Shown: piece after piece, positions 50,448 through 62,724 of the stretch
Position numbering within the stretch: position 1 is the first letter of the stretch
Layout of the letters: every line of letters begins with the position of its first letter
Origin: Escherichia coli
GTDB lineage: Bacteria > Pseudomonadota > Gammaproteobacteria > Enterobacterales > Enterobacteriaceae
DNA: 64,000 nucleotides
Reading direction: 5' to 3' (one strand)
NCBI RefSeq assembly: GCF_003334305.1
Contig: NZ_QOWS01000006.1
Translations under genes and position numbers: made by a program
Notes under the pieces: generated by a model
Told to the model about the DNA's origin: nothing
What the model saw: the letters and a program-made list of their open reading frames with translations, nothing else
Database searches by the model: none

Positions 50448-51236
50448 GTGATTGATAAATCCGCCTTTGTGCATCCAACCGCCATTGTGGAAGAGGGCGC
50501 GTCAATTGGCGCGAACGCACACATTGGTCCTTTTTGTATCGTTGGACCCCATGTCGAAATTGGTGAGGGTACCGTACTGAAATCTCACGTTGTCGTGAAT
50601 GGTCATACTAAAATTGGCCGCGATAATGAGATTTATCAGTTCGCCTCCATCGGCGAAGTTAACCAGGATCTGAAATATGCTGGCGAACCGACCCGTGTGG
50701 AAATCGGCGATCGTAACCGCATTCGCGAAAGCGTCACCATTCATCGTGGCACAGTCCAGGGCGGTGGATTGACGAAGGTGGGCAGCGACAACTTACTGAT
50801 GATCAACGCGCACATTGCGCACGATTGTACGGTAGGTAACCGCTGTATTCTCGCCAACAACGCAACGCTGGCGGGTCACGTATCGGTTGACGACTTCGCG
50901 ATCATCGGCGGCATGACCGCAGTCCATCAGTTCTGCATCATTGGTGCGCACGTGATGGTTGGCGGCTGCTCCGGTGTGGCGCAGGACGTCCCTCCTTATG
51001 TCATTGCGCAGGGTAACCACGCAACGCCGTTCGGTGTCAATATCGAAGGGCTGAAGCGCCGCGGATTCAGCCGTGAGGCGATTACCGCTATCCGCAATGC
51101 GTATAAGCTGATTTATCGTAGCGGTAAAACGCTCGATGAAGTGAAACCGGAAATTGCTGAACTGGCGGAAACATATCCGGAAGTGAAAGCCTTTACCGAT
51201 TTCTTTGCACGCTCAACGCGCGGTCTGATTCGTTAA
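50448..51236 (+). CDS. lpxA: UDP-N-acetylglucosamine O-acyltransferase
   Basis: 262-aa ORF, GTG start; hexapeptide-repeat protein. Confidence 0.9.
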
Positions 51237-60218: not shown

Positions 60219-61517
60219 ATGACACTCACGCTCAATAGACAACTTCTCACCTCACGCCAGATTCTGGTGGCCTTTAGCGGCGGGCTTGACTCCACCGTTC
60301 TGCTGCATCAGTTGGTGCAGTGGCGGACGGAAAATCCGGGCGTCACTCTGCGCGCTATTCATGTGCATCACGGTTTAAGTGCCAATGCCGATGCCTGGGT
60401 TACGCATTGCGAAAACGTCTGCCAACAGTGGCAGGTGCCGCTGGTGGTCGAACGCGTACAACTTGCGCAAGAGGGGCTGGGGATTGAGGCCCAAGCGCGG
60501 CAGGCGCGTTATCAGGCATTTGCCCGTACCCTATTGCCCGGCGAAGTGCTGGTCACCGCGCAACATCTCGACGATCAATGTGAAACCTTTCTGCTGGCGC
60601 TAAAACGCGGTAGCGGCCCTGCCGGGCTTTCGGCTATGGGGGAAGTCTCGGAGTTTGCCGGAACACGGCTTATCCGCCCGTTGCTTGCCCGCACGCGGGG
60701 GGAACTGGCGCAGTGGGCATTGGCGCATGGTTTACGCTGGATTGAAGACGAAAGTAATCAGGACGACTCATACGATCGTAACTTTCTGCGCCTGCGTGTA
60801 GTGCCGTTATTGCAGCAGCGTTGGCCGCATTTTGCCGAAGCAACGGCCCGCAGCGCCGCACTTTGTGCTGAACAAGAGAGTCTGTTGGATGAACTGCTGG
60901 CGGATGATTTAGCACACTGCCAAACGTCGCAGGGGACGCTGCAGATTGCGCCAATGCTAGCGATGAGTGATGCCCGTCGCGCGGCGATTATCCGCCGCTG
61001 GCTGGCAGGGCAGAATGCACCGATGCCTTCCCGCGACGCGCTGGTGCGGATCTGGCAGGAAGTGGCGCTGGCGCGGGAAGATGCCTCCCCCTGTTTACGC
61101 TTGGGCGCGTTTGAAATCCGCCGATATCAGTCGCAACTGTGGTGGATTAAATCCGTCACCGGGCAAAGTGAAACCATTGTGCCGTGGCAGACGTGGCTAC
61201 AACCGCTGGAATTACCGGCGGGGCTGGGAAGCGTACAGCTTACTGCGGGAGGCGATATTCGCCCTCCGCGTGCAGACGAAGCGGTCAGCGTGCGTTTCAA
61301 AGCGGCAGGATTGCTGCATATTGTCGGGCGCAACGGCGGACGTAAGCTGAAGAAAATCTGGCAAGAGTTAGGCGTGCCGCCGTGGCTACGTGACACCACG
61401 CCACTGCTGTTTTATGGCGAAACGCTGATTGCGGCGGCAGGGGTATTTGTGACGCAAGAAGGTGTGGCTGAAGGTGAGAATGGCGTAAGTTTTGTCTGGC
61501 AGAAAACGCTTAGTTAA
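60219..61517 (+). CDS. tilS: tRNA(Ile)-lysidine synthetase
   Basis: 432-aa ORF with PP-loop SGGLDS. Confidence 0.9.
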
Positions 61518-61523
61518 GTGAAA

Positions 61524-61556
61524 GCCGGATAAGACGCATCAAACGTCGCATCCGGC
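61524..61556. repeat. REP (repetitive extragenic palindrome) unit
   Basis: GCCGGATAAGACG...CGTCGCATCCGGC palindrome between the convergent tilS and rof. Confidence 0.65.
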
Positions 61557-61565
61557 GAAAGTCAA

Positions 61566-61820
61566 TCAGGACTCGCTCACCACCACCGTACCGATTTCCG
61601 GGTGGCTAAAGCTGGTAATTTTATCCAGACGTAGCTCACGGGTTTCGCCAGCGGCCTCGACGACCAGATACTCCACATTTTTGCGGGAGACTAAATCGCT
61701 GGCTTTTGCCTGCAATTTTTCGCCATCTTTCAGCTCAAGTGTCAGCATTAAATGATGCTGGCAGGCGAGCTCAAGATTATCGTAATCATCACAATTGATT
61801 GGTTGATACGTATCATTCAT
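61566..61820 (-). CDS. rof: Rho-binding anti-terminator Rof
   Basis: 84-aa protein [23 protein letters not shown]...; alternative start at 61826. Confidence 0.8.
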
Positions 61821-62013
61821 TGACATAATCGCTCACCAGTAAGTTTGCCGCAGCGTATGCTGCTTTTTCCCTGACAGCCTCAGAAAGGGCGTCGTCGGCA
61901 GCCATTTCATTCAGCACTTTCAAAACGCAGCCCAGCGCGTCCGGAACGTATCCTAAGTCTCCGCTGGCGATTTCCGCGTACCGCTTGCGTATTAACTCAC
62001 AATATTTTTCCAC
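61813..62013 (-). CDS. yaeP: UPF0253 small protein
   Basis: 66-aa protein (M)[21 protein letters not shown]...; probable GTG start; overlaps the rof start by 8 nt. Confidence 0.7.
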
Positions 62014-62178: not shown

Positions 62179-62724
62179 ATGGCGCTTAAAGCGACAATTT
62201 ATAAAGCGACGGTTAATGTGGCCGATCTCGACCGCAACCAGTTTCTCGATGCCTCTCTGACGCTGGCGCGCCACCCTTCAGAAACCCAGGAGCGTATGAT
62301 GCTGCGCTTGCTGGCGTGGCTGAAATATGCTGATGAACGTCTGCAATTTACCCGTGGTTTGTGTGCCGATGATGAGCCGGAAGCGTGGCTGCGTAACGAT
62401 CACCTGGGCATTGATTTGTGGATTGAGCTGGGGCTGCCGGATGAGCGGCGGATTAAGAAAGCCTGCACCCAGGCCGCAGAAGTGGCGCTGTTTACCTATA
62501 ATAGTCGGGCGGCGCAAATCTGGTGGCAGCAAAATCAGAGCAAATGTGTGCAGTTTGCCAATCTTTCCGTCTGGTATCTGGACGATGAACAACTGGCGAA
62601 AGTAAGCGCCTTTGCCGATCGTACCATGACGCTGCAGGCAACGATTCAGGATGGCGTGATCTGGTTATCGGACGATAAGAATAATCTGGAAGTTAACTTA
62701 ACCGCCTGGCAACAACCTTCATGA
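62179..62724 (+). CDS. yaeQ: YaeQ family protein
   Basis: 181-aa [25 protein letters not shown]... recognised as YaeQ. Confidence 0.8.

What the first reader, a model, noticed from the sequence alone, without database searches (positions are those of the whole stretch)
61524..61556. REP units at convergent gene ends
Canonical REP palindromes lie between tilS and rof and downstream of nlpE (63899-63996, paired units). These are expected intergenic repeats that can act as mRNA stabilisers or terminators.
Basis: partly seen in the sequence, partly recalled or inferred. Interest (0 to 1): 0.1.

Follow-up and report, generated by a model that had tools for sequence, protein, structure and literature searches.

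The report
Ordinary REP hairpin; neighbour hides IS621
The flagged 33-base palindrome between tilS and rof is a genuine, ordinary E. coli REP repeat sitting where related bacteria carry a transcription terminator, while the supposed "paired" repeat after nlpE is one REP with the start of the REP-seeking mobile element IS621 inserted in it.

Summary
The window is Escherichia coli. The finding is confirmed at 61524-61556. It is a 33-nt imperfect palindrome matching the REP head and tail consensus, 6 nt after the tilS stop and 9 nt after the rof stop. It folds well on both strands (-19 and -22 kcal/mol). It is present in 5418 of 5426 complete E. coli genomes and in three other Escherichia lineages.

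It is a degenerate single REP. It keeps the AA/GC stem mismatch but has GAAA in place of GTAG, so the REP transposase probably cannot use it. About 69 of 80 other Enterobacteriaceae species carry a CGGGCAGC...GCTGCCCG(T)n terminator hairpin in the same position. The REP therefore most likely serves as the rof terminator and 3'-end hairpin, and as a 3' stabiliser for tilS. That function is inferred, not shown.

The second claim, paired units at 63899-63996, is wrong in detail. Only 63899-63925 is a REP (z1 type). From 63926 to the window end lies the left end of a 1279-bp IS621, inserted at its known target ATCAGGC|CT|AC. The REP-like ATCGGGCCT at 63989-63997 is the target guide of the IS621 bridge RNA. 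Everything found is already known, so interest is low.

The parts
60219..61517 (+). tilS coding sequence (tRNA-Ile lysidine synthetase). Its stop codon TAA is at 61515-61517.
   Evidence: ORF list. RefSeq annotation of identical DNA in strain A7 and of K-12.
61524..61556 (.). REP#1. A single y-like REP with a z2-like inner stem: GCCGGATAAGACGCATCAAACGTCGCATCCGGC. The outer stem is 7 bp, followed by an AA/GC internal mismatch, a 4-bp inner stem and a 7-nt loop. GAAA stands 5' of the foot where GTAG is expected.
   Evidence: pattern 2 observed vs 0.0 by chance. (fold -19 kcal/mol on +, -22 on -, z -4.3 and -4.9). Identical in K-12. Junction present in 5418/5426 E. coli genomes. IS1397 is inserted in its loop in strain GMF054.
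61566..61826 (-). rof coding sequence (Rho-binding antiterminator). Its stop codon is at 61566-61568, 9 nt from REP#1.
63157..63867 (+). nlpE coding sequence.
63899..63925 (+). REP#2. A z1-type REP in iREP orientation: GCCTGATGCGCTGCGCTTATCAGGC plus CT. Its CTAC tail is split after CT (63924-63925), which is the IS621 core dinucleotide. ATCAGGCCT at 63917-63925 is the left half of the IS621 target plus the core.
   Evidence: The empty site in strain 1344_LBHALD reads ...CTTATCAGGCCTACAGC... and equals the filled site minus 1279 bp, 181/181 identical. The natural IS621 target ATCAGGCCTAC is given in PMC11208160.
63926..64000 (+). First 75 nt of the 191-bp left non-coding end of IS621. The element continues beyond the window. 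This stretch contains a -10-like TATTAT (63928-63933) and the inferred start of the bridge RNA at about 63940.
   Evidence: The window is identical to strain A7, where the CT cores are 1279 bp apart and the left end is 191 bp up to the recombinase CDS. The recombinase matches PDB 8WT6 'IS621 transposase' over all 326 aa, E 4e-220. The 191-bp left end and roughly 177-nt bridge RNA are from PMC11208160. The start at about 63940 is my inference (191 minus 177).
63943..63970 (+). Perfect 10-bp hairpin GCAGAGAAAA/TTTTCTCTGC. It is the 5' stem-loop of the IS621 bridge RNA and is not a REP.
   Evidence: (I7), and folds. [quoted passage not shown]
63989..63997 (+). [quoted passage not shown] It has the same sense as the REP target half-site. 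This is what made the region look like a second REP.
   Evidence: motif position. [quoted passage not shown]

Best explanation
REP#1 (61524-61556) is a genuine single member of the E. coli REP (palindromic unit) family. It has lost the GTAG tetranucleotide and is fixed throughout the genus Escherichia. It occupies the 48-nt gap between the convergent tilS and rof genes, in the slot where most other Enterobacteriaceae carry a GC-rich intrinsic-terminator hairpin. Transcribed from either strand, it forms a stable stem-loop. On the rof strand the stem is followed by UUUCACUU, so it most likely acts as the hairpin of a weak-to-moderate intrinsic terminator and as the protected 3' end of the yaeP-rof mRNA. 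On the tilS strand there is no U-tract, so it most likely acts only as a barrier to 3'-exonucleases or as a pause site. The stem begins 6 nt after the tilS stop and 9 nt after the rof stop, so it also meets the published '15 nt or less from the stop codon' condition under which REPs stall terminating ribosomes. The second site is one z1 REP of a former BIME-1-like pair (z1 iREP, 36-nt linker, y REP). A 1279-bp IS621 has inserted into it by bridge-RNA-guided recombination at ATCAGGC|CT|AC, and the window ends 75 nt into that element. What is shown: sequence identity, folding, conservation, the comparative slot, and the IS junctions. What is inferred: termination, stabilisation and ribosome stalling.
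For: REP identity rests on an exact match to the head and tail consensus (2 hits vs 0.0 by chance). It also has an imperfect palindrome with the AA/GC mismatch, and its outer stem and mismatch match the y-REP consensus printed by Rfam naRNA4. The REP-specific IS1397 sits in its loop in strain GMF054 (specificity from PMC1525189). Hairpin stability is -19 and -22 kcal/mol, with 0 of 200 shuffles folding as well. The junction is in 5418/5426 E. coli genomes, and the same REP lies 9 nt after rof in E. albertii and two other Escherichia lineages. It shows 1 difference in 33 from E. albertii, against 11 of 87 rof third codon positions. In 80 species, about 69 have (A)nCGGGCAGC-loop-GCTGCCCG(T)n 3-10 nt after the rof stop, 3 Escherichia have the REP, and Citrobacter has REP pairs. 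The tail score is -3.77 on the rof strand and -1.57 on the tilS strand. The stop-proximity rule is quoted in PMC12306157 from Liang et al. 2015. For IS621.
Against: There is no transcript, 3'-end or protein data for this locus. The simple terminator scan did not call REP#1 on either strand, although that scan cannot handle a stem with an internal mismatch. The U-tract is short (UUUC). The conservation signal is weak statistically: 1 difference observed against about 4 expected, and gene conversion among REP copies could also keep it intact. The replacement of an ancestral terminator is inferred from present-day distribution, and Salmonella and E. fergusonii were not among the 80 loci returned.
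Confidence: 0.75

Rival explanations
1. REP#1 mainly tunes translation. Because the hairpin starts 6 nt after the tilS stop and 9 nt after the rof stop, terminating ribosomes collide with it. This would lead to stalling, mRNA cleavage and tmRNA tagging, lowering the output of both convergent genes.
For: The distances are read directly from the sequence. REPs fewer than 16 nt from a stop codon were reported to down-regulate translation (Liang et al. 2015, as quoted in PMC12306157). The hairpin is stable on both strands.
Against: This was not tested for these genes, and the primary paper could not be read. In relatives the non-REP terminator hairpin is equally close to, or overlaps, the stop codons. 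Proximity may therefore simply reflect tight packing of convergent genes. This role does not exclude the terminator/stabiliser role.
Confidence: 0.3
2. REP#1 is a neutral, immobilised relic of selfish REP spread. It has no role for the host and persists only because deletion is rare or gene conversion keeps it intact.
For: It lacks GTAG, which TnpA_REP needs for binding and cleavage (PMC3333891). It is a single unit without a partner. One strain tolerates an IS1397 insertion that splits it.
Against: It is near-universal in E. coli and retained in three other Escherichia lineages, with fewer changes than neighbouring synonymous sites. It is the only hairpin in a slot that about 69 of 80 related species fill with a terminator, and Escherichia has no other terminator there.
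Confidence: 0.2
3. REP#1 works at the DNA level, as a binding site for gyrase, DNA polymerase I, or HU/nucleoid-associated RNA, as described for BIMEs, rather than in RNA.
For: These activities are reported for REP/BIME elements in general (PMC1525189 background; naRNA4 paper PMC4550694 listed). There are weak sub-threshold Rfam naRNA4 hits at REP#1 (23.5 bits, E 0.4).
Against: Those roles were described for paired or clustered units, and this is a single unit. The naRNA4 score is far below the gathering score of 59.5. Nothing in the locus points to a DNA-level role.
Confidence: 0.07
4. The reported range 63899-63996 is a pair of REP units (a BIME).
For: ATCGGGCC at 63989-63996 resembles the REP tail ATCAGGCC. 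A true partner y REP does exist in this strain, but 1.3 kb further on, outside the window.
Against: Positions 63926-64000 are identical to the IS621 left end in strain A7. Removing the 1279-bp element restores the empty site 181/181. The region has no REP palindrome, and the only hairpin there is the 5' stem-loop of the bridge RNA.
Confidence: 0.02

Closest known systems
E. coli REP / palindromic units (y, z1, z2 types) and BIMEs (Bachellier; Ton-Hoang et al. 2012, PMC3333891)
   Same: The length is 30-40 nt, with an imperfect GC-rich palindrome, a GCCKGAT...ATCMGGC outer stem, a two-base AA/GC mismatch and an extragenic 3' location. Both copies are targets of REP-specific IS elements. REP#2 with its distant partner matches the BIME-1 layout (z1, long linker, y).
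   Different: REP#1 is a single unit with GAAA in place of the conserved GTAG, y-like outer arms with a z2-like inner stem, and a 7-nt loop. REP#2's CTAC tail is split by IS621, and its partner lies outside the window.
Intrinsic (Rho-independent) terminators shared by convergent genes
   Same: A stable GC-rich hairpin lies a few nucleotides after the stop codons. On the rof strand a short U-rich tail follows. The position is the same as the conserved terminator hairpin of other Enterobacteriaceae.
   Different: The stem has an internal mismatch, the U-tract is only UUUC, and there is no U-tract on the tilS strand. The simple scan did not call it.
Stop-codon-proximal REPs that stall ribosomes (Liang, Rudd and Deutscher 2015, as cited in PMC12306157)
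   Same: The REP is within 15 nt of a stop codon, and here that holds for both convergent genes (6 and 9 nt).
   Different: There are no data for tilS or rof. Whether one REP serves two genes in this way has not been examined.
IS621, an IS110-family bridge-RNA-guided recombinase element (Choi et al. 2003; Durrant et al. 2024, PMC11208160; Hiraizumi et al. 2024, PMC11208158)
   Same: The element is 1279 bp, with a CT core at both junctions, a REP target ATCAGGCCTAC, a 191-bp left end and a target-binding loop encoding ATCGGGCCT. The recombinase matches PDB 8WT6 over its full length.
   Different: Nothing differs in kind. The window holds only the first 75 nt of the element. This particular insertion site (nlpE-yaeF) is occupied in 694 of 5426 complete E. 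coli genomes.

Membership tests
E. coli REP (palindromic unit) | 30-40 nt imperfect palindrome able to form a stem-loop | tested here: met
   REP#1 is 33 nt with 13-nt arms and folds at -19 and -22 kcal/mol. REP#2 is 25-27 nt and folds as a hairpin.
E. coli REP (palindromic unit) | Match to the consensus arms GCC[G/T]GATG ... CTTATC[A/C]GGC | tested here: met
   Both copies match exactly. There are 2 in the window against 0.0 in 300 simulations. A first fixed-loop pattern missed them.
E. coli REP (palindromic unit) | Two-base mismatch in the stem, required for TnpA_REP binding (PMC3333891) | tested here: met
   REP#1 has an AA opposite GC internal loop in the predicted structure. The requirement is stated.
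E. coli REP (palindromic unit) | Conserved GTAG 5' of the foot (CTAC in the inverse orientation) | tested here: not met
   REP#1 has GAAA (gtGAAAgccgg), and all three other Escherichia lineages likewise show TTTC or TTTT on the other strand. REP#2 has CTAC in the empty site, but it is split after CT in the window. REP#1 is therefore best filed as a degenerate member that is probably immobile.
E. coli REP (palindromic unit) | Extragenic and transcribed with flanking genes, typically at 3' ends | tested here: met
   Both copies lie after stop codons. Transcription itself was not tested.
E. coli REP (palindromic unit) | High copy number in the genome | not tested
   Only the 64-kb window was scanned, giving 2 copies. 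The figure of 584 copies in K-12 comes from PMC3333891. The RefSeq tables available here carry no REP features.
E. coli REP (palindromic unit) | Recognised as a target by REP-specific insertion sequences | tested here: met
   IS1397 lies in the loop of REP#1 in strain GMF054. IS621 lies in REP#2 in this strain. Target specificities are from PMC1525189 and PMC11208160.
BIME-1 (z1 + long linker + y) | Two inverted REPs separated by a long linker, single copy | tested here: inconclusive
   The layout is met in the empty site and in strain A7 once IS621 is removed: z1 iREP, 36 nt, y REP. It is not met inside the window, where only the z1 unit is present. The IHF site in the linker was judged by eye only.
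Intrinsic terminator | GC-rich hairpin immediately followed by a U-tract | tested here: inconclusive
   On the rof strand a hairpin is followed by UUUCACUU, tail score -3.77. On the tilS strand the tail is GAAAGUCA, score -1.57. The simple scan called neither strand. Relatives have a clear terminator in the same slot.
IS621 (IS110 family bridge recombinase element) | 1279-bp element flanked by the CT core, inserted at ATCAGGCCTAC, with a 191-bp left end encoding the bridge RNA and a 326-aa recombinase | tested here: met
   cores 1279 bp apart, precise empty site; PDB 8WT6, E 4e-220, residues 1-326; the 177-nt RNA folds, z -3.6; published features. Only 75 nt of the element lie in the window.
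naRNA4 (Rfam RF02564, REP325-derived HU-binding RNA) | Score at or above the family gathering threshold (59.5 bits) | tested here: not met
   REP#1 scores 23.5 and 23.2 bits. The y REP beyond IS621 scores 46.1 bits.

The most novel reading that the evidence does not exclude
REP#1 is an exapted, immobilised REP. In the ancestor of Escherichia it displaced the conserved rof/tilS terminator hairpin. It would now act as a two-way element: a terminator for rof, and a ribosome-stalling hairpin within 15 nt of the stop codons of both convergent genes, so that one repeat sets the output of a tRNA-modification enzyme and a Rho antagonist. A further speculation concerns IS621, which is inserted in the same direction as nlpE. 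Read-through from nlpE past REP#2 could then express the bridge RNA from the integrated copy, rather than only from the excised circle.
Probability: 0.15. Interest if true: 0.35.

Novelty: already known. Interest (0 to 1): 0.12.

Why it matters
For annotation, the main point is that the last 75 bases of the window are not repeat clutter. They are the edge of an IS621 copy, the founding bridge-RNA recombinase element, caught at its natural REP target. Its guide sequence is easily mistaken for a REP. For biology, the tilS/rof copy is a clear example of a REP occupying the place of an ancestral terminator between convergent genes. This supports the long-standing view that some REPs are kept because they provide 3'-end hairpins. 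Neither point opens a new question.

Tried and rejected
- A fixed 6-nt-loop REP consensus with 3 mismatches found nothing, because loop length varies. A variable-gap pattern replaced it. The version allowing one substitution per arm was too permissive (0.51 chance hits), so the exact version was used.
- I looked for curated REP features in NC_000913. The table available here has none, even around positions 5000-6500, where I recall (from memory, not checked here) a REP annotated in the GenBank record. The absence is therefore uninformative.
- The Rfam scan found no family at threshold. Only sub-threshold naRNA4 hits appeared, and they simply reflect REP consensus.
- The promoter/terminator scan made no call at either REP.
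- Liang et al. 2015 and Choi et al. 2003 are not held in the library. Their content is cited second-hand from PMC12306157, PMC11208160 and PMC1525189.
- The RepRanger supplements contain no entry for tilS, rof, nlpE or yaeF.
- A third REP-tail-like motif at 50437-50448 lies in a stretch with no partner arm, and the translation reads through it. I judged it a chance half-site.
- A chance palindrome was rejected as an explanation for REP#1.

Full report
**What the window is.** The last 2.7 kb of the window are 100% identical to several complete Escherichia coli chromosomes, for example strain A7. The RefSeq annotation of that DNA and the ORF list give the following genes: tilS 60219-61517 (+), rof 61566-61826 (-), yaeP (-), yaeQ, arfB, and nlpE 63157-63867 (+). 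So tilS and rof are convergent, and their stop codons are 48 nt apart.

**Observation at 61524-61556.** The sequence is GCCGGATAAGACGCATCAAACGTCGCATCCGGC.
- It has 13-nt arms that are 85% complementary around a 7-nt loop.
- On the minus strand it reads GCCGGATGCGACG...CGTCTTATCCGGC, which is the classical REP head and tail.
- An exact variable-loop pattern (GCC[GT]GATG, 6-30 nt, TTATC[AC]GGC) finds two sites in the 64-kb window, this one and 63899-63923. It finds none in 300 first-order Markov simulations.
- As RNA it folds to -19 kcal/mol on the tilS strand and -22 kcal/mol on the rof strand, with z-scores of -4.3 and -4.9.

**How canonical it is.** Ton-Hoang et al. define E. coli REPs as 30-40 nt imperfect palindromes with a two-base stem mismatch and a highly conserved GTAG 5' of the foot. 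There are three types (y, z1, z2). K-12 has 584 copies, of which only 84 are single. Both GTAG and the mismatch are needed for binding and cleavage by the REP transposase TnpA_REP (PMC3333891).
- REP#1 has the y-type outer stem (GCCGGAT/ATCCGGC) and the AA/GC mismatch.
- Its inner stem resembles z2. This can be seen by comparison with the y and z2 consensus printed in the Rfam naRNA4 alignment.
- The tetranucleotide is GAAA, not GTAG.

It is thus a single, degenerate unit that TnpA_REP probably cannot process. It also lacks the IS621 target, since no ATC[A/C/G]GGCCTAC occurs in the window. It is nonetheless recognised as a REP by another REP-specific element. In strain GMF054 an IS1397 sits in its loop, splitting ...GACGC|...|AACGTC... 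with a short TCA/TTCA repeat. IS1397 and IS621 are the two E. coli IS elements shown experimentally to insert into REPs (PMC1525189).

**Distribution of REP#1.** A 201-nt query centred on REP#1 is covered at 80% or more in 5418 of 5426 complete E. coli genomes, with a median of one place per genome. The element is identical in K-12. Divergent strains differ mainly in the loop and the mismatch.

A scan of one genome per species with the Rof protein returned 80 Enterobacteriaceae loci.
- The three other Escherichia lineages (E. albertii and two unnamed species) have the same single REP 9 nt after the rof stop, also without CTAC.
- Against E. albertii the REP differs at 1 of 33 positions, while rof differs at 11 of 87 third codon positions. 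This suggests constraint but is not significant, and gene conversion is an alternative.
- Citrobacter species have REP pairs in this position.
- About 69 of the 80 species (Klebsiella, Raoultella, Kluyvera, Enterobacter, Lelliottia, Kosakonia, Trabulsiella, Buttiauxella and others) have no REP. Instead they carry a short hairpin (A)nCGGGCAGC-loop-GCTGCCCG(T)n starting 3-10 nt after the rof stop. This is a classic terminator, and it is often bidirectional.

**Mechanism of REP#1 (inferred).** The REP sits in the terminator slot of this convergent gene pair, and Escherichia has no other hairpin there.
- On the rof strand the stem is followed by UUUCACUU. The d'Aubenton-Carafa/Kingsford tail score, with the formula taken from memory, is -3.77, similar to several relatives.
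- On the tilS strand the tail is GAAAGUCA, scoring -1.57.
- The tool's simple terminator scan called neither strand, but it cannot handle an interrupted stem.

My best reading is that the REP hairpin terminates yaeP-rof transcription, at least partly, and protects its 3' end. For tilS it serves as an exonuclease barrier or pause site.

The stem begins 6 nt after the tilS stop and 9 nt after the rof stop. [quoted passage not shown] 2015, quoted in PMC12306157). That effect may add to the first role. However, the same tight spacing exists with the non-REP hairpins of relatives, so it may be incidental. None of these functions was tested here.

**The second site (63899-63996).** Only 63899-63925 is a REP. 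It reads GCCTGATGCGCTGCGCTTATCAGGCCT, which is z1 type in the inverse orientation.

In strain A7, which is identical to the window, an 'IS110-like element IS621 family transposase' gene follows 191 bp later. The element is bounded by two CT dinucleotides 1279 bp apart:
- left junction ATCAGGC-CT-TGTATTATCC;
- right junction ACAGTAT-CT-ACAGCA.

Deleting those 1279 bp reproduces, 181 of 181 bases, the nlpE-yaeF spacer of strain 1344_LBHALD. That spacer reads z1 iREP with an intact CTAC, a 36-nt linker, then the y REP GTAGGCCGGATAAGGCGTTTACGCCGCATCCGGCA, which is a BIME-1-like pair. The encoded protein matches PDB 8WT6 'IS621 transposase' over all 326 residues, E 4e-220.

Durrant et al. report the natural IS621 target as ATCAGGCCTAC with a CT core, a target-binding loop encoding ATCGGGCCTAC, and a 191-bp left end. 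That left end carries a roughly 177-nt bridge RNA, whose promoter is completed only in the excised circle (PMC11208160).

In window coordinates:
- the target half-site plus core is 63917-63925;
- the IS left end runs from 63926 to the window end;
- TATTAT at 63928-63933 is the -10 element (my reading);
- the bridge RNA should start near 63940 (191 minus 177, my inference);
- the perfect hairpin at 63943-63970 is its 5' stem-loop;
- ATCGGGCCT at 63989-63997 is the nine-base left target guide, which has the same sense as the REP half-site.

The real partner REP lies about 1.3 kb further on, outside the window.

**Population context.** The nlpE-REP-IS621 junction is covered at 80% or more in 694 of 5426 complete genomes. 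Full-length IS621-like elements occur in 1636 genomes, with a median of five places per genome that has any. K-12 has a different spacer. Most of the z1 unit is missing, leaving CAGGCC, and a z2 unit follows the y unit. The locus is therefore a typical variable REP/BIME site.

**Comparison with known systems and verdict.** Everything here belongs to well-described families: E. coli REP/BIME elements, REP-targeting IS1397 and IS621, and the bridge-RNA mechanism of IS621.
- REP#1 fails one defining feature (GTAG), so I file it as a degenerate, immobilised member rather than a canonical one.
- Its functional resemblance to an intrinsic terminator is supported by comparative position, but membership of that class is inconclusive.
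- The Rfam naRNA4 family is not met: 23.5 bits against a threshold of 59.5.

The finding is ordinary and already known. The useful corrections are the missing GTAG, the terminator-slot evidence, and the fact that the 'paired unit' is the edge of an IS621 copy. I score interest at 0.12.

Noticed in passing
window 63926-64000, continuing in L003 4127-5405: The window ends 75 nt into a complete 1279-bp IS621, the model bridge-RNA recombinase element. It is inserted in the same direction as nlpE. This site is occupied in 694 of 5426 complete E. coli genomes, and full-length IS621-like copies occur in 1636 genomes.
   Followed up: yes
L004 1060-2500 (strain GMF054), equivalent to window ~61539: An IS1397 (IS3 family, REP-specific) is inserted in the loop of the tilS/rof REP in one complete genome. 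The insertion separates tilS and rof by about 1.4 kb.
   Followed up: partly
L001 4480-4680 (K-12) compared with L007 420-600 and window 63868-63925: The nlpE-yaeF spacer differs between strains. K-12 has lost most of the z1 unit, leaving only CAGGCC, and has an extra z2 unit after the y unit. Strain 1344_LBHALD has the intact z1-linker-y pair. The window strain has that pair split by IS621.
   Followed up: partly
L003 5502-5701 and L007 583-886 (outside the window): yaeF, the gene convergent with nlpE, is annotated as a frameshifted pseudogene both in strain A7 (IS621 present) and in strain 1344_LBHALD (empty site). The frameshift is therefore not caused by the IS.
   Followed up: no
L011-L087, about 3-40 nt after the rof stop: A conserved hairpin CGGGCAGC-loop-GCTGCCCG, often flanked by A and T runs, follows rof in about 69 of 80 Enterobacteriaceae species. 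It sometimes overlaps the end of tilS. The stem sequence itself is conserved across genera, which is more than a generic terminator would need.
   Followed up: partly
L061, L064-L067, L070, L072, L074, L078, L081, L082, L087 (rof-tilS spacer of about 350 nt): In Buttiauxella, Cedecea, Franconibacter and some 'Enterobacter' species, about 350 nt lie between rof and tilS, beginning right after the terminator. This stretch may hold an extra small gene on the opposite strand. It was not examined.
   Followed up: no
window 61813-61826 and 62721-62724: The rof and yaeP reading frames overlap by 14 nt, and yaeQ and arfB overlap by 4 nt. The rof start is annotated differently in K-12 (255 nt) and by PGAP (261 nt).
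   Followed up: no
window 50437-50448 (- strand): CTTATCAGGCCT, a REP-tail / IS621 half-target look-alike, occurs in a stretch with no partner arm, so I judged it a chance match.
   Followed up: partly
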